A DNA stretch of 64,000 nt from Eledone cirrhosa (taxonomy: Eukaryota), in assembly GCA_964016885.1 (NCBI GenBank), contig OZ024743.1, positions 26,474,001 through 26,538,000 on the forward strand, in the 5' to 3' direction. Under the pieces are notes generated by a model. That model was not told the DNA's origin. It did no database searches and worked only from the letters and a program-made list of their open reading frames with translations. Both the position numbers and the translations under genes were made by a program. Positions 3,606 to 61,078 of this stretch are shown here, in pieces. Within the stretch, counting starts at the first letter, position 1, and each line of letters opens with the position of its first letter.

Positions 3606-6600
3606 TTTATATATAGAGCATATAAATAAATTTACAGTAGAATAACATAACAAATATGTTTTAAATATATACATAAATAACATTACAAATGCTTAGATAA
3701 CATTATAAATTGTTCGTGATTCTTTCAGAAAAACATATTCTTTTAATGTTACAATATTAAATAAAATGTAAAGGAAGGGGTGAACAACGGAGCCAACACC
3801 AGAGCAAAAGACAGCAACATCGCGAAGTGATTTTTGAGGCAAGCCAGCACACTCGCAGTGTTGCCTCAGGTAATGGCGAGGCTAATGCACTGGAACAACC
3901 AAGCGCCCTCGCGAGATTTGCCAGTTACCTCTATTAGGCGAGCCTCCAGTGAAGAGAGGAACCTCGCAGTCAGCGGCCCAACTCCTCCAAACGTCTCAAA
4001 ACCAACAGGCTGAAAAATGTAGCTGGCCGTCAGATCAGGGTATTTGAGGGTCTTACTCCGCTCGGCTGTGGTAGCTGTGGCTCTCGTCCTAATTGCAGCA
4101 TCCAGGATGTGGGAAAGAGCAAAAGAGTCACTAACAGTGACGTCCCAGACAAGGCACCTGCCTCTCGACCCTTCAGGTCTTTTGCCGTCACTTCTGGACA
4201 ACCTAGATGGTTGTAAGATTGAGGGGAAGTTCGCCCAGGCCAAAGCTCTCCTGAGAATGAGGTTTAGCTCTGTGTGATGCGTGAAGCGGCCGGCATTCAG
4301 GTGGCAAGAAAGACCGTGGAGTCGAGGAGTTTGCCGCATCGGCATCTCAAACCCATGAAGACATCAGCTCCCACTCTGAGAGCGATGGAGACACAAAGTT
4401 CGTCCAGGCTGAGTAGGCCACCATAGTTGGCCACGGGTAGGGCATCAAACCAGTTGCCTGAGTATTTGGCACTGGCAGATAGTAAGCGGTACCTTGCAAA
4501 CTGATCTGACTGGACGAAGACGGAGTTGAAGGTGGCCTTCGAACTTATGCTGTCCCAAGTTCTCTGACTTCAACTATCCTCCATCTTCTCAGGAGGCGAC
4601 AAGCCCAACTCATTCCATTGCTGGAGAATTTCACCCAACTCCCTGTTGGAACTAGTCCATGTTGGAGAGCATGCTGCTCACCAGAGTGGAGGAAAAGAAG
4701 CAGGAGAGAAAGAGAGGGACGAACACTTACGAAGACCAAGACCCCCAAATCGCTTGGGCAACGCAACCTGATTGTGGGACTCTGGAGAGAGTCTAACATT
4801 GACCAGACACTCGAGTCTCTCGAAGATTAGGTCGTCAAAGCGTTGGAGGCAAGACGGAAATCTGTGAGAGGGCTGACCCTGAGCTGATAGAGAAGCTTAG
4901 GAATAGACAGATAGTTCCAGAGTATGTAGAAACCTTGATGGGCTTCGATAACCTCAATATTCTTCAGCAACTGCTCAAGGCCAACCATCTTCGATTGGAA
5001 GATTGACTCGAAGGCAAGGTCTGTGATTGGGGCTCCTAAGGAGCACCAAGTTGACAGGGTAGGGACCGTGATGGAAGGGAAGGACTCTACAAACAGGTCG
5101 ATTAGCTGTTGGTGTTCAGGATCCAGAGCTCACATTTGGAGCTATTGACCTGGAGACCCCAGCGACCAAGCTCCTCAACTATTTTGTTGGCAGTGGTAAG
5201 AACCATATCCGAAGTTCCCCCCAAACAACCATCGTTGAGGTACCAGACATTGCGGTCCAACTCAACCCTCATCTTGGTGACGTCATCAATGCCCAGTGCA
5301 AACAGAGCAGGCCCAAGTGGGTCACCCTGTTGGACTCCTGAGGCAGAGGTGATGGTTAGGTCACAGAAAGAGAGGTAGGAGGGCTCCTGATAAGCCTGCC
5401 AAGCAAAGTGGTAGAGTTGTGGGACCCTCTCTCTTACTGAGCCGAGAACGACGTCGTGGCTGACGGAGTTAAAAGCATTCCTGAGGTCAAGTTTGAGGAT
5501 GACCTTGGGGGACGAGGAGGGCAAGTTGGTAAATGCTCTGGTAGCATGGACAGCAGCCTCACATCCCAACTTGGTACCCACCCCCAGCTGGATGGGGGAA
5601 AATTTCTCCGCCAGTGAGTCAGCGACCAACAGCAAAGGCGCCTTTGCAGTGAGGCAGCGAAGGCTGAAGCCAACCGCAATGGGGAGCAGGTTTCCGTTGG
5701 GCTTGGTGAGATCAAATAGCTTCACACCTAAGAACAGTGGGCAGATGAACGGGAGAACGTTCATTGAAGAGAACTGATTCACAAACTGAGTCAGACTCTC
5801 CAAGAGCTTGAGTCCGGCGTCACCGGCCGATAAGGAGATACCATCCTTGAGGTGTTGAGGACGAAGGCCGTCAATTCCCATGCCTGACCCAGCGGGGAAG
5901 GATAAAATCACCTTTCTGATGATATCGGTGGTGTAAACCAGTCTCGAGTATTCTGGTGGTTCGGGCCAATGTAGCTGATCATCTGGGGGTGCCGATGGGT
6001 GCTTCTTTTTCAGTCTCTCAAGAGAATCAGAGTTGCACAGAGCAAGGGAAGATAGAGAAGAGGAGACGGACAGTCCCTTTAATGTCAAATTCGCTGAATT
6101 TGGCATTGACCGCTCGCTTGAGGTCTATCGGTTGTCTGTTGGTGGACACCGGGCTCGATGTCGAACTGAGGTGAGACGTGGTTGGGGTAGACTCAAACAG
6201 CTGGAACTGCTGCTTGAGAGAGGACGTGAGGGAATCCGAATTTGCATTGTGCACATGAAGAGAGATGAGAGGAAACAAAAACAATTTCTGCCGGTCAGAC
6301 CTAATGTTGGACGAGCAAACATTTTTCAATAAATTAGACATGCAAAGCTATTCCGAGCTCCCTTAGGGATCCGGTTAACGAGCTTTGATTTGGAGAAACC
6401 CTGGAGGGGTGTGGCAAAGTCCTTGGTAGAGAGTTGGTCATCGAAGCGTGGGGCATCCCCATGGAATACATCGGAGCTGAAGTGGCACCGATTACAGGTC
6501 CAGTATTGAAGCCTTTCGGCTTGAGCTTTGGTGATGCTGACACAGCTTCTGTGGTAGCTTGCGTGGCATAGGTGACATTTAATTGTCTTTAAGTACTGGC

Positions 6601-56932: not shown

Positions 56933-57152
56933 CCCTTTTGATATCAAACCAACTGAAACTAGCCTGGTTCTATTATACAAAATATTTGTTTTAAAGTGTT
57001 ATATTTATCTAAAGACCTTCCATCATAATTTTATGTAACAACCTTTGTTGTATTATGCTTCAGACACTAACTTGATAATGAGAAAGTGTTATTTTAAAAA
57101 TTATTTGAAAATCAAAGGCAGTATTTTTCATTAGAAATATGGTAACAAAGGG
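56933..57152. mobile_element. piggyBac-type MITE family 2 (ccctttcRttacc / cccttttgata termini, TTAA TSD)
   Basis: ttaa|cccttttgata...ggtaacaaaggg|ttaa. Other copies at ~13952-14141, 14663-15321, 18490-18735, 28355-28608, 29891-30125, 32294-32824, 40950-41232, 48332-48702 and 59503-59725. Confidence 0.78.
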
Positions 57153-57502
57153 TTAACAGCTCATTAGAATAGTTTCTATTTACTTTTCTCACAGCAGACA
57201 TCCAAATGTTTACACTTTCAAAATCATCTGATCCATACTATTAGATAGACATAAAATGATTATACAAATGTTCACATACACGATGAAAGAGTACGACGAT
57301 TGGTGAGATGCTGTGCTGAAAAGGACCTGTCCAACCTCATGCAAGCGTGGAAAAGCAGCCATAAAAATGAAGATGATGATTACATGTCTGTTTCTTTCAG
57401 TGTGTCTGCGAGGACATATATTTCAAGGAAATGTTAACACACATTCAATACATATATCTATTTTTCATTAATGGTAAAACTATATAAGAGAGAGAGAGAG
57501 GT

Positions 57503-57526
57503 GGGGGGGGGGGGGGGGGGGGGGGG
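57503..57526 (+). repeat. G24 homopolymer following (GA)n
   Basis: Directly visible. Confidence 0.85.
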
Positions 57527-57782
57527 CAGAGAATCAGACTACAGCACTTGAATCAATTGCAATATATGACTGATTCATAATTTATCAAGCATGCTAAGAT
57601 CCAAAGAAAAAAATTCAAGTCATAGTAGGATCCGAATTTGAGAAAAAATATTGTAAATGTTGCCAATAAGAAACACACGCACCAGTTGCTTTCACTTCAA
57701 TTTATTATATATTTATAAATTTATAAATTTACAAATCTATAAATTTCTGGTTGGTTCCACACCCAGATAGTTGTTTATATAT

Positions 57783-57827
57783 AGTCATAGTCCTTTCGTC
57801 ACACACTCTGTGACCTCTTCAGTGACT
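57783..57827 (-). ncRNA. Mirror-copy hammerhead motif in the left arm of the PLE palindrome
   Basis: Reverse complement of 59198-59242. Confidence 0.78.
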
Positions 57828-59197
57828 GGGGATTCCTTTTTTCGTTTCTGTGCCTTTCCTTTCTTCTATCCTACGCCATTTTGTTTCTGTGTGTGTGTTG
57901 TGTGCTCAGTTTGCGCATGCGCCACATCCGGGTGTCTGTGTGTGTTTGTGTTCATTTATCTATTTGTTTATTTATTTACATGTTATTGGTTGGTTGTTTG
58001 TTCTATGTGTGTGTGTGTTTTCATTTTGTCCTTAATTGTAAGTTGTGATGTTGCTGTTCCACTCATATTTTCTATTTAATTTTGGTTGTAATTCTTTTAT
58101 GTTTATTGCCTCAACATTGCATCTTTTCTGTGTGTAGATTCTATTTTTATTTCTATGTTCTCTAATTTACCCTTGTGTTCTATCTTAGCATGTTGGTAGA
58201 GTACAGATGATTCTTTATCTTGAAGGTCTCGCCAGTGTTCATTTATCCGTTCCCCTATACTACGAGCTGTCTCACCTATGTACACTATATTTTTGTTTCT
58301 ACATTGTCCTTCAGTACATCTTATGCTATACACTACATTTCTAGTTTTACAGTTAATATGGGGGCTTATTTTACAGGTTATACATTTCTTATCTATACAT
58401 GAGGGTCTTTGAAACGGGTATGTCTTGCTAATAAGTGTTAATAAGTGTTTTTACGGAGGTACCTCCGTAAAAACACTTATTAGCAAGACATACCCGTTTC
58501 AAAGACCCTCATGTATAGATAAGAAATGTATAACCTGTAAAATAAGCCCCCATATTAACTGTAAAACTAGAAATGTAGTGTATAGCATAAGATGTACTGA
58601 AGGACAATGTAGAAACAAAAATATAGTGTACATAGGTGAGACAGCTCGTAGTATAGGGGAACAGATAAATGAACACTGGCGAGACCTTCAAGATAATAAA
58701 GAATCATCTGTACTCTACCAACATGCTAAGATAGAACACAAGGGTAAATTAGAGAACATAGAAGGCGAGACCTTCAAGATAATAAAGAATCATCTGTACT
58801 CTACCAACATGCTAAGATAGAACACAAGGGTAAATTAGAGAACATAGAAATAAAAATAGAATCTACACACAGAAAAGATGCAATGTTTAGACAAATTACA
58901 GAGGCAATAAACATAAAAGAATTACAACCAAAATTAAATAGAAAATATGAGTGGAACAGCAACATCACAACTTACAATTAAGGACAAAATGAAAACACAC
59001 ACACACACACATAGAACAAACAACCAACCAATAACATGTAAATAAATAAATAAATAAACAAATAGATAAATGAACACAAACACACACAGACACCCGGATG
59101 TGGCGCATGCGCAAACTGAGCACACAACACACACACAGAAACAAAATGGCGTAGGACAGAAGAAAGGAAAGGCACAGAAACAAAGAAAGGAATCCCC

Positions 59198-59242
59198 AGT
59201 CACTGAAGAGGTCACAGAGTGTGTGACGAAAGGACTATGACT
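59198..59242 (+). ncRNA. Minimal type I hammerhead ribozyme motif in the PLE pLTR
   Basis: agtca-CTGAAGA-g-gtcaca-gagtg-tgtgac-GAAA-ggac-TA-tgact: stem I 5 bp, stem II 6 bp, intact core; predicted cleavage after 59237. Confidence 0.78.
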
Positions 59243-60140
59243 ATATATAAACAACTATCTGGTTGTGGAACCAACCAGAAATTTATAGATTTGTAGATTT
59301 GTAAATATATAATAAATTGAAGTGAAAGCAACTGGTGCGTGTGTTTCTTATTGGCAACATGACTCTCCCAAAGTATAACAATATCGGTTTCAACACACGA
59401 TTTCAGATAAAGAATCTTGCTAAACAAATTCAGAAACGAAATATTGTAAATGATTTGTTAGGAACTTGTTTGTGTGTGTGTATGTTAAATCTTCACTTTT
59501 TAACTCTTTTCATACCAACCACCCCTAGTTATATGATACAAAGCTGTTTATTTTAAAGAGTTTATATTTATCTGGGAATCTTCCATCATAATTTTGTTCC
59601 AAATACCAACTTAATAATAAGAGCAAGAGAGTTATATTACTAAATCCCTCCAAATTTCTGATTATTTTCAAAATGATTTGAAAACCATAGACAGTAATTT
59701 CATAACAAATATGATTATGAAAGGGTTAAGCTAATTTGTGCTAGAAATAACAGCCAAATCTTCCTCAACTCACACTCTACTTAGTTAACAAAAGTTTATA
59801 TTAATGTAAACGAGGTTGCACTATGCCTAGAAAAAAAGTCACATTGGTCACAATCAAGGCTAACATAGGCTTATAGTTAAATAACTCTATTGTACTACTA
59901 ATAATTATTAGGAATATTAACCACATTGATCTGACTGATCTTGGATGGCCTGCGAAGGTTATTGGCACAGCCTTCCCCTTCCTCCCTCCACAACCTGCAG
60001 TAAAACACAAAATTATTCTCAGACAGATGAAAAATAACTTTAATGAAATTCTGTCACAGTATTAAAACATGTTTAAAATGTATGTATATAGGCAGATGTA
60101 TTATTCTGCCAGTTAGTGGGAGTGTATATATGTATATGTA

Positions 60141-60258
60141 TATATAATAATTGTTTCTACTTTAGGCACAAGGCCAGCAATTACCCAGTGCATTACTGGT
60201 ACTTTATGCACTGGGTAATTGCTGTCCTTGTGCCTAAAGTAGAAACAATTATTATATG
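60141..60258. repeat. Foldback of the SINE family A 3' end (~52-bp stem, 12-nt loop)
   Basis: ataataattgtttctactttaggcacaaggccagcaattacccagtgcat-tactggtacttt-atgcactgggtaattgctgtccttgtgcctaaagtagaaacaattattat; one mismatch. Confidence 0.9.
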
Positions 60259-61078
60259 TATATATAATAATATTGGATATAAATAGAAGTTGTAGCTGCC
60301 ATATAGCAGGTACTAATCGAGTTGTTTGAGACAATCACAAAGCACTCAATAGAGCGAGAAGTTAAACATTATAGCCCAGAATAAAACAAGTTATAAAGTG
60401 TGACACCAAGAAAAATGACTGAAGGCAGCGGCCATACATATACCACAACCATGATAAATACAAAAAGGTTGAAGACTATGTATATATGTGTGTGTATATA
60501 TACACCCACACACCCACATGTGAAATTAGATGTTTGAATATATACAAAAGTTATTCTCAGTTTATAACTAATTATTACTACTAATAAATTATTTTTTATT
60601 CTTATCTTCTTTATACGAAACCATTTAATTCTTCGAGGTAAAAACTGTATTCAATTTATTTTACTTGCCTTACTTTCCTTATAGACACTAGGTTTTTATA
60701 GATTTTGTTATTTTCTCAAGTTAGCATGGGTGGGATAGTAGTGATAAAAATGCATATTGTTGGAAGTATTGCATATTGGTGTGACCTTGCTGTTAATAAG
60801 TGAACAATATGTGAGAATGAGGTAAACAATCATGAACAAGGTTCATAATTATGTGGTCATTTGACCTGCTAAACATTGCAACCACATCTCCATCACATAC
60901 TATTGGGTTTTTTTAAAGAAAAAAAAAAGAAGACATTTTTTAGTCTTTAATATGCTGTCTGGAAAAACAAGGTGGTCATAGCAAGAATGGTTTTGATCAT
61001 AGGCCTTCTCTATATATCTTTCTCTCTATATATATACATGTTTCTACATATATATATATATATGGTTATTTATTTGTT

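What the first reader, a model, noticed from the sequence alone, without database searches (positions are those of the whole stretch)
57646..59452. 1.7-kb spacer-less Penelope-like palindrome with GIY-YIG nuclease, TSD and ORF restart
Seen: ~800-900 bp arms meet with no spacer at ttacggaggt|acctccgtaa (58460/58461). Each arm carries the Cys cluster and GIY-YIG C-terminus, the 3' UTR and an HHR. The right arm continues 78 nt into ATG ACT CTC... (MTLPKYNNIGFNTRFQIKNLAKQIQKR) before a 14-bp TSD. The arms have private lesions: right, an 86-bp tandem duplication (58678-58763, 58764-58849); left, 13-bp and 3-bp deletions and a 10-bp duplication. This argues against a read-foldback artefact. Established: PLEs form direct or inverted pLTR structures, and perfect long palindromes are usually unstable. 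Inference: a snapshot of fold-back priming during PLE insertion. The repaired C-terminus (DAMFRQITEAINI...PKLNRKYEW) may belong to the Naiad/Chlamys or Neptune group.
Basis: partly seen in the sequence, partly recalled or inferred. Interest (0 to 1): 0.75.

Follow-up and report, generated by a model that had tools for sequence, protein, structure and literature searches.

The report
Fold-back insertion of a Penelope-like retrotransposon
This is a real 1.8-kb spacer-less palindrome made of two 5'-truncated, decayed copies of a high-copy Penelope-like retrotransposon flanked by one target-site duplication, and it is likely an ordinary by-product of how these elements insert (the new cDNA copying back on itself), a structure already described for this class.

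Summary
Two arms (57660-58460 minus strand; 58461-59358 plus strand) meet without a spacer at AGGT|ACCT. An exact 14-bp repeat flanks them. Both arms encode the Cys-rich linker and GIY-YIG nuclease of a Penelope-like element (PLE), then a 3' UTR with a hammerhead-like motif that Rfam does not detect.

The family has over 2,300 copies in a 3.0-Gb genome and a unit of about 4.1 kb. RT lies upstream of a C-terminal nuclease, and most copies sit in (TA)n repeats. The right arm's extra ~80 nt is the known PLE "tail". In full-length tandem copies it is the start of the next ORF (MTLPKYNN...).

New points:
- The fold point is a native 8-bp palindrome, AGGTACCT.
- Two other loci have short inverted stubs (19 and 11 nt) at the same centre.
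- Four of 8 unselected simple 5' ends also carry snap-back stubs.
- Head-to-head pairs are common: 12 such pairs against 0 tail-to-tail among 100 sites.

The best reading is cDNA snap-back self-priming at insertion, a hypothesis already published for PLEs. The element is not Naiad/Chlamys, because the nuclease is C-terminal and no in-frame TGA is conserved. Its motifs are Neptune/Nematis-type. This is a new member of a known kind, of low to moderate interest.

The parts
57646..57659 (.). Left copy of the target-site duplication, AAATATTGTAAATG.
   Evidence: It is identical to 59439-59452.
57660..58031 (-). Left arm 3' UTR (pLTR part). Its outer end is ...TTGGCAA(CAT), with no tail.
   Evidence: Alignment A1. 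The genome match ends at query 900, the only one of 41 3'-end matches to stop there.
57783..57827 (-). Left-arm hammerhead-like motif, the mirror of 59198-59242.
   Evidence: It is the exact reverse complement of the right-arm motif. No Rfam hit.
58032..58460 (-). Left-arm remnant of the ORF 3' end: CX4CxxC linker, GIY-YIG nuclease with CCHH, and stop TAA at 58032-58034. It is broken by a 13-bp deletion (~58113), a 3-bp deletion (~58219) and a 10-bp duplication (58431-58450).
   Evidence: (PF01541, E = 2.9e-5).
58457..58464 (.). Palindrome centre AGGT|ACCT. It coincides with an 8-bp palindrome native to the element (native context GACCAGGTACCTCC).
   Evidence: The native 27-mer across it occurs 2318 times in the genome.
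58461..58981 (+). Right-arm remnant of the ORF 3' end (linker plus GIY-YIG nuclease), with stop TAA at 58979-58981. It is frame-shifted by the exact 86-bp tandem duplication at 58678-58763 / 58764-58849.
58982..59358 (+). Right-arm 3' UTR (pLTR part).
   Evidence: Alignment A1. The same sequence precedes the ATG in full-length tandem copies.
59198..59242 (+). Right-arm hammerhead-like motif. Helix I is AGUCA/UGACU, followed by the core CUGAAGA and an extra G. Helix II is GUCACA/UGUGAC, followed by GAA and a short helix III. The predicted cut is after A59237.
   Evidence: Manual parse. The centroid fold shows helices I and II, but z is only -1.1. The motif is invariant in 5 aligned copies. Rfam gives no hit. 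[quoted passage not shown]
59359..59444 (+). The 'tail': the first ~80-86 nt of the element's ORF (ATG ACT CTC..., MTLPKYNNIGFNTRFQIKNLAKQIQKR). It ends at the family's main 3' terminus, ...GAAACGAAATAT. The last 6 nt overlap the TSD.
   Evidence: In one search, 31 of 41 3'-end matches stop at this site and 9 of 41 stop at an earlier AATAT site.
59439..59452 (.). Right copy of the target-site duplication.

Best explanation
The palindrome is one 5'-truncated insertion of a (TA)n-targeting Penelope-like retrotransposon, and its second, inverted arm was likely made during insertion by the nascent cDNA snapping back on itself. Steps shown and steps inferred are marked below.

1. The nuclease nicked an AT-rich site (inferred).
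2. Reverse transcription started at the family's usual internal site, ...GAAACGAAAUAU, about 83 nt into the next unit's ORF. This gave the right arm with its tail. That the right arm ends at the usual site is shown; the priming itself is inferred.
3. cDNA synthesis ran about 0.9 kb to the element's own 8-bp palindrome, AGGTACCT (the position is shown).
4. The 3' end then switched from the RNA onto an antisense cDNA strand and copied it back outward for about 0.8 kb (inferred).
5. The new end was joined to the other side of the target at a 3-nt CAT/ATG overlap, leaving an 8-14-bp TSD (the overlap is shown, the joining inferred).
6. Both arms later decayed independently by about 1.2-1.4% substitutions plus indels (shown).
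For: Element identity:
- Both arms carry a GIY-YIG domain.
- Natural longer copies carry an RT (YVDD) upstream in the same ORF and a C-terminal nuclease.
- Tandem units have a period of 4027-4087 bp, with the 3' UTR running straight into the ATG.
- In one search, 13 of the 14 non-window 3' ends shown lie in (TA)n.

Single event:
- There is one exact 14-bp TSD.
- The arms are each other's nearest neighbours among 29 family sequences. Their distance is 0.0116, and the left arm's next nearest is 0.0228.

Fold point:
- The native sequence across the centre is an 8-bp palindrome.
- The same centre recurs at two other loci with different flanks. L027 has a 19-nt inverted stub and L028 an 11-nt stub.
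- L056 has a 32-nt stub with a 1-nt spacer, starting 6 nt further 5'.

Snap-back is family-wide:
- Eight simple 5' ends were not chosen for palindromes (L002, L004, L005, L006, L008, L009, L037, L038). Four of them have symmetric stubs.
- Those four are L005 (233-nt arm), L009 (13 nt), L038 (38 nt) and L037 (8 nt, no spacer).
- L009 has an 11-nt loop and L038 a 4-nt loop, both of native sequence. A loop of native sequence is what an intramolecular hairpin leaves.

Head-to-head bias: among the first 100 listed sites of the native 27-mer there are 12 -/+ pairs within 5.3 kb and 0 +/- pairs.

Arm ends: the right arm ends at the main site (31 of 41 matches), and the left arm ends at a site used by no other scored copy (1 of 41). 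This is expected if the left arm is the secondary copy.

Literature, passages read:
- PMC3846280 (Discussion) infers self-priming from palindromes at PLE inverted junctions.
- PMC8557442 describes inverted 5'-truncated copies and the tail as typical of PLEs.
- PMC11167929 shows internal RT initiation, which explains the tail.
Against: - A hairpin with no loop at all, as at AGGT|ACCT and in L037, cannot form within one strand. At these sites the switch may be onto a second cDNA molecule, which blurs the line with the twin-priming rival.
- L027 and L028 cluster together in the family tree (support 0.994). They may not be fully independent of each other.
- No read or long-read evidence spanning the centre could be obtained.
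- The other head-to-head pairs examined are asymmetric: 11 of the 12 pairs, and likewise the 9 non-window pairs. The fully symmetric long form is therefore uncommon.
- No biochemical evidence exists for this family.
Confidence: 0.65

Rival explanations
1. Twin target-primed reverse transcription. Both nicked target strands primed cDNA synthesis on element RNA. The two cDNAs both reached the AGGTACCT palindrome, annealed to each other through it, and were filled in.
For: A purified PLE protein cleaves and extends both target strands in vitro and is predicted to be a dimer (PMC11167929, main text read). An 8-nt self-complementary 3' end can pair between two molecules but not within one. Both outer junctions show short overlaps with the target: AAATAT on the right and CAT on the left. 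In L033, L034 and L035 both arms end at the canonical 3' site.
Against: It cannot explain inverted stubs of 8-38 nt that stop far from any RT start site (L009, L037, L038, L027, L028, L056). It also cannot explain loops of native sequence. The left arm does not end at either canonical start site; it is 1 of 41. Two cDNAs stopping at the same nucleotide needs an extra assumption.
Confidence: 0.2
2. Post-insertion DNA-level event. An ordinary 5'-truncated copy was later duplicated in inverted orientation by fold-back repair or a replication template switch.
For: Short palindromes can nucleate fold-back inversions during DNA repair (general knowledge, not tested here).
Against: A copy truncated at ACCT would lack the AGGT half of the palindrome, so the microhomology would not exist at the DNA level. 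The TSD abuts the outer end of the left arm directly, so the inverted segment would have had to land exactly at the old 5' junction. The same kind of junction recurs at many independent insertions of this family.
Confidence: 0.05
3. Assembly artefact, such as a fold-back chimeric read or misjoined inverted copies.
For: PLE tandem and inverted structures are known to trouble assemblies (PMC8557442, PMC3846280). No spanning read evidence was obtained here.
Against: The two flanks are different unique sequences sharing only the 14-bp TSD. A chimeric fold-back read would mirror the flank as well. The arms differ by 11 substitutions and 7 indel events, including an 86-bp duplication. The same centre exists at two other loci.
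Confidence: 0.04
4. Retrotransposed copy of a pre-existing palindromic master. An RNA read through an older palindrome was copied as a whole.
For: Three loci share the identical centre. Two of them are close relatives.
Against: No other locus with long arms at this centre exists in the genome. Two of the three stubs are 19 nt or shorter, which is unlikely if 5' truncation fell at random along an 800-nt arm. The window's arms are closer to each other than to L027 or L028.
Confidence: 0.04

Closest known systems
Canonical EN+ Penelope-like elements with inverted pLTR structures (Penelope of Drosophila virilis; Pen2/Pen3 of Adineta vaga; PMC3846280, PMC8557442)
   Same: A single ORF with RT followed by a C-terminal GIY-YIG nuclease. 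Partial tandems (pLTR). An inverted 5'-truncated copy at the 5' side. A tail on one end only, a short TSD, and palindromes at the inverted junction. AT-rich targets. An N-rich low-complexity insert in the ORF.
   Different: Here the direct copy is itself truncated at the fold point, so the whole insert is one symmetric palindrome with no single-copy body. The tail is longer (56-86 nt against the 30-40 nt quoted). The host genome's closest named relatives are Octopus vulgaris hypothetical proteins at 67% identity.
Neptune / Nematis clades of PLEs (Arkhipova 2006, as cited in PMC8557442)
   Same: C-terminal nuclease, a CX2-5CxxC linker (here C-IDKK-C-IT-C), a CCHH motif with two Cys between GIY and YIG, and a (TA)n insertion bias.
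   Different: No phylogeny against named reference elements could be run. The 'DKG' motif reads DKS in this family. Assignment between Neptune and Nematis is open.
PAc (Poseidon of Anolis carolinensis) in vitro system (PMC11167929)
   Same: 3' ends of insertions fall at two discrete sites inside the start of the next unit's ORF, and the sequence between them is the tail.
   Different: In this family both sites are AATAT|CG, and the flanks are (TA)n, so a few nucleotides of primer-template overlap are possible. [quoted passage not shown] The hammerhead-like motif lies about 120 nt upstream of the ATG rather than across it.
L1 5' inversions by twin priming, and RT snap-back (self-primed) cDNA synthesis (recalled, no call)
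   Same: Inverted segments are created at insertion by use of a second primer or template, with microhomology at the junction.
   Different: L1 twin priming inverts a different part of the same RNA and does not duplicate sequence. Here the same segment is present twice.

Membership tests
Penelope-like elements (EN+, C-terminal EN) | RT and GIY-YIG nuclease in one ORF, with the nuclease C-terminal | tested here: met
   L012's natural 362-aa open frame runs from the RT C-terminal region through the linker and GIY-YIG to the stop. L014's 698-aa frame covers the RT (YIDD) to the linker. PF01541 matches the window arms. RVT_1 is only weak, E = 6.4e-4, below the cut-off. Homologues P0090 and P0044 carry RVT_1 and/or a C-terminal GIY-YIG.
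Penelope-like elements (EN+, C-terminal EN) | Partial tandem organisation (pLTR) | tested here: met
   The 3' UTR is followed directly by the ATG of the next unit in L017, L018, L019, L023 and L025. The ATG-to-ATG period is 4027-4087 bp in 4 loci.
Penelope-like elements (EN+, C-terminal EN) | 'Tail' extension on one end of the insert | tested here: met
   The right arm runs 80-86 nt beyond the left arm's end. The family 3' ends stop at two sites, 31 of 41 and 9 of 41 (sequences).
Penelope-like elements (EN+, C-terminal EN) | Inverted 5'-truncated copy adjacent to the 5' end | tested here: met
   Ten of 17 loci are head-to-head. There are 12 -/+ pairs against 0 +/- pairs among 100 sites.
Penelope-like elements (EN+, C-terminal EN) | Hammerhead ribozyme motif in the pLTR | tested here: inconclusive
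   All core nucleotides and helices I and II can be drawn by hand at 59198-59242, and the motif is invariant in 5 copies. No Rfam hammerhead hit appears at E <= 1 or E <= 10. The fold z-score is -1.1. No covariation is available.
Penelope-like elements (EN+, C-terminal EN) | CCHH motif, with two Cys between GIY and YIG | tested here: met
   It is read directly in VVYSIRC-TEGQ-C-RNKNIVYIGET...LYQH-AKIE-H. The assignment of the two His residues is by inspection only.
Penelope-like elements (EN+, C-terminal EN) | RT groups with PLE/TERT RTs in a phylogeny | not tested
   No named reference PLE or TERT sequences were available to the tools. There was no PDB match, and the Atlas neighbours are unnamed.
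Neptune / Nematis clades | CX2-5CxxC Zn-finger-like linker upstream of GIY-YIG | tested here: met
   SC-IDKK-C-IT-CK is present in both arms and in other copies. The feature definition comes from PMC8557442.
Neptune / Nematis clades | Placement within the clade by RT/EN phylogeny | not tested
   No reference sequences were available.
Naiad / Chlamys clades | N-terminal GIY-YIG nuclease preceding the RT | tested here: not met
   The nuclease follows the RT and is followed by the stop codon and the 3' UTR.
Naiad / Chlamys clades | Selenocysteine-coding in-frame TGA (some Naiads) | tested here: not met
   Twenty in-frame stop positions were found in 8 copies, each private to one copy. Only 2 are TGA, each in a single copy. 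Frames are open for 874 and 1042 aa from the ATG.
Hydra clade | CCHH absent; linker CxCX5C; length under 3 kb | tested here: not met
   CCHH is present, the linker is CX4CxxC, and the unit is about 4.1 kb. Only the (TA)n targeting is shared.

The most novel reading that the evidence does not exclude
This high-copy family preserves thousands of 5' junctions that record how PLE cDNA synthesis ends. Snap-back self-priming is the default way the 5' end is made, and short native palindromes such as AGGTACCT act as hot spots that turn an insertion into a perfect palindrome. A census of this one genome could settle the long-open question of how PLE inverted pLTRs arise.
Probability: 0.4. Interest if true: 0.5.

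Novelty: new member of a known kind. Interest (0 to 1): 0.3.

Why it matters
How Penelope-like elements build their tandem and inverted repeat structures is still unsettled. Self-priming was proposed from a few rotifer copies, and both-strand extension was seen in vitro. This locus adds nothing new in kind.

The family around it is more useful. It has over 2,300 copies, little-diverged (pairwise distances about 1-3% among 29 sampled sequences), with hairpin stubs whose loops are native sequence and with a recurrent fold point at a native palindrome. That makes it a good natural data set for telling snap-back from twin priming.

For genome annotation, the palindrome should be masked as a dead PLE fragment. 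It is not a gene or a regulatory hairpin.

Tried and rejected
- Read support. The second, on 57745-59270, returned only short contigs of about 60-110 nt from this high-copy repeat, none bridging the centre informatively. No conclusion can be drawn on spanning support, RNA, siRNA or editing.
- Rfam. Only chance-level hits appeared: mir-1305 on the palindrome centre at 30.7 bits against a gathering score of 63, plus sRNA71, MIR7807 and snoU83B. All were rejected.
- Pfam RVT_1 on family ORFs is below the cut-off or absent. There was no PDB sequence match. ESM Atlas neighbours are unnamed clusters carrying HTH_animal/DUF8422, so no clade name was obtained. The local Pfam copy lacks PF26215 and PF28514, which appear in the precomputed lists.
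- Earlier findings of this scan: none for this genome.
- L040 matched the fold-back pattern. It proved to be an ordinary copy with two substitutions (CC>GG) and was dropped.
- Two independent insertions at one site were considered and rejected. The arms share the same truncation nucleotide and a single TSD, and they are nearest neighbours in the family tree.
- Symmetric fold-backs at the other 18 native palindromes of 8 bp or more were not tested. The search patterns would have had to be constructed sequences.
Full report
**Observation.**
- Two arms, 57660-58460 (minus sense) and 58461-59358 (plus sense), meet with no spacer at ACGGAGGT|ACCTCCGT.
- Aligned, they share 786 positions with 11 substitutions (98.6% identity) and 7 indel events.
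- The right arm has an exact 86-bp tandem duplication at 58678-58763 / 58764-58849.
- The left arm has a 10-bp duplication next to the centre (58431-58450), a 3-bp deletion (~58219) and a 13-bp deletion (~58113).
- Three further length differences lie in simple-repeat stretches.
- Other genomic copies carry one 86-bp unit and none of the left-arm lesions, so each lesion is private.
- AAATATTGTAAATG is exact at 57646-57659 and 59439-59452.
- As single-stranded DNA the centre folds at z = -11.6 against shuffles.

**What the arms encode.** Read outward from the centre, both arms give KTYPFQRPSC-IDKK-C-IT-C...VVYSIRC-TEGQ-C-RNKNIVYIGETARSIGE...
- Pfam GIY-YIG matches at E = 2.9e-5 (left arm) and 5e-3 (right arm, cut by the duplication).
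- The frame ends ...DAMFRQITEAINIKELQPKLNRKYEWNSNITTYN*.
- A 3' UTR of about 377 nt follows the stop codon.

**The family.** The window lies in a 3.0-Gb genome.
- The arm sequence has 3654 first-look candidates. A 27-mer of native sequence across the fold point occurs 2318 times exactly.
- Longer natural copies show an RT (motif YVDD or YIDD) upstream of the linker and nuclease in the same frame. The nuclease is therefore C-terminal.
- In five loci the 3' UTR (...CTTATTGGCAAC) runs straight into ATGACCCTCCCAAAGTATAAC... and on into the ORF.
- From that ATG the frame stays open for 874 aa (L032) and 1042 aa (L030), into the RT. The ATG-to-ATG period is 4027-4087 bp.
- Thirteen of the 14 non-window 3' ends printed lie in (TA)n. 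The window copy sits instead in an AT-rich unique site.
- The closest named relatives are hypothetical proteins of Octopus vulgaris, at 67% identity. Other relatives carry RVT_1 and GIY-YIG.

**The 'ORF restart' is the PLE tail.**
- Of 41 3'-end matches, 31 stop at ...GAAACGAAAT(AT), query 979/980. Nine stop at ...AACAATAT (query 924). One, the window's left arm, stops at query 900.
- Both common ends are AATAT|CG sites inside the first 86 nt of the ORF.
- This matches the published account. A tail on one end of the insert is typical of PLEs (PMC8557442, passages and section 11 read). It corresponds to two internal RT start sites in the beginning of the next ORF (PMC11167929, main text read).
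- The first 6 nt of the window's TSD (AAATAT) equal the element's canonical end, so the duplication proper is 8-14 bp. The left junction shares CAT with the element.

**Clade.**
- Naiad and Chlamys have an N-terminal nuclease (PMC8557442). That feature was tested here and is not met.
- Twenty in-frame stop positions in 8 copies are each private to one copy. Only two are TGA, each in a single copy. Nothing points to selenocysteine.
- Hydra lacks CCHH, has a CxCX5C linker and is under 3 kb. Here CCHH and CX4CxxC are present and the unit is about 4.1 kb.
- Penelope/Poseidon lacks the linker.
- The motifs and the (TA)n bias therefore fit Neptune/Nematis. No phylogeny could be run, and the 'DKG' motif reads DKS.

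**Hammerhead.**
- No Rfam hammerhead model matches.
- By hand, 59198-59242 (mirror 57783-57827) reads as follows:
  - helix I AGUCA/UGACU
  - core CUGAAGA
  - one extra G
  - helix II GUCACA/UGUGAC
  - GAA
  - a 2-bp helix III
  - a cut after A59237
- The motif is invariant in five copies, so there is no covariation. The fold is not better than shuffles (z = -1.1). I count it as likely but unproven.

**Origin of the inverted arm.**
- The native element reads GACCAGGTACCTCC at the fold point. The centre is therefore a native 8-bp palindrome.
- The same centre occurs at two other loci with unrelated flanks. L027 has a 19-nt inverted stub followed by unique DNA. L028 has an 11-nt stub, inserted in the TATATA of an older copy.
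- A fourth pattern hit, L040, is only a mutated ordinary copy and was dropped.
- L056 has a 32-nt stub with a 1-nt spacer, starting 6 nt further 5'.
- The phenomenon is not confined to this site. Eight simple 5' ends were not chosen for palindromes, and four of them carry symmetric stubs:
  - L005 has a 233-nt arm.
  - L009 has a 13-nt stub with an 11-nt loop of native sequence.
  - L038 has a 38-nt stub with a 4-nt loop of native sequence.
  - L037 has an 8-nt stub with no spacer.
- A loop of native sequence is what a hairpin formed by one cDNA strand leaves behind.
- Long inverted arms are also the rule. Ten of 17 loci are head-to-head.
- Among the first 100 listed sites of the native 27-mer there are 12 -/+ pairs within 5.3 kb and no +/- pair. 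Eleven of those 12 are asymmetric junctions, most with blast-estimated overlaps of a few nucleotides.
- The window's palindrome is thus the symmetric, full-length extreme of a common outcome.
- The two arms are each other's nearest neighbours among 29 family sequences, as expected for one event.

**Mechanism and rivals.**
- I favour snap-back. The cDNA primed at the canonical site (right arm) reached AGGTACCT, switched onto antisense cDNA, copied back about 0.8 kb, and was joined to the other target end at CAT. This explains why the left arm alone ends at a non-canonical site.
- The hypothesis is in print. PMC3846280 (Discussion read) infers PLE self-priming from palindromes at inverted junctions.
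- The main rival is priming from both nicks, with the two cDNAs annealing through the palindrome. It is supported by both-strand extension in vitro (PMC11167929) and by the fact that a loop-less hairpin cannot form in one strand. It does not explain the short stubs.
- A later DNA-level duplication, an assembly artefact and a palindromic master copy are each unlikely, for the reasons given in the Rival explanations section.
- One caveat: L027 and L028 cluster together (support 0.994), so they may not be two fully independent recurrences.

**Limits.** Read evidence could not be obtained. No clade phylogeny, ribozyme assay or small-RNA data were available.

**Verdict.** The structure is a known and, in this family, common by-product of PLE insertion. 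I class it as a new member of a known kind, with interest of about 0.3.

Noticed in passing
window 57489-57529: A (GA)n run is followed by a G homopolymer of about 30 nt, 130 bp left of the insertion.
   Followed up: no
window 56963-57156 and 59524-59729: Direct repeats of about 200 bp at 80-81% identity lie on either side of the insertion. They are probably two copies of a short dispersed repeat and are not part of the PLE.
   Followed up: partly
window 60126-60273: An AT-rich inverted repeat has 68-nt arms, 91% complementary, with a 12-nt spacer (I8).
   Followed up: no
L015 2099-2477; L032 4746-4917: Two other perfect palindromes, unrelated in sequence to this PLE, sit beside family copies. 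One has 189-nt arms with a 1-nt spacer, the other 86-nt arms with no spacer. Perfect palindromes may be frequent in this genome.
   Followed up: no
L031 / L032, about 260-420 aa from the ATG: The family ORF has a long Asn/Thr-rich low-complexity stretch between the N-terminal domain and the RT. It recalls the Asn-rich inserts described in rotifer Penelope ORFs (PMC3846280).
   Followed up: no
L013 (element-sense coordinates 1742-2194): A different reverse-transcriptase ORF (motif YRDDALL) lies beside the inverted arm of that copy, which it appears to interrupt.
   Followed up: no
P0080: A protein model named dynein regulatory complex subunit 6-like in Octopus vulgaris matches this PLE ORF at 77% identity over 21% of the query. 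A PLE fragment is probably included in a host gene model.
   Followed up: no
L054 about 4040-4055: Another copy's 5' end falls a few nucleotides past the same native palindrome and is joined to an asymmetric inverted partner. This may mean cDNA ends cluster around this site.
   Followed up: partly
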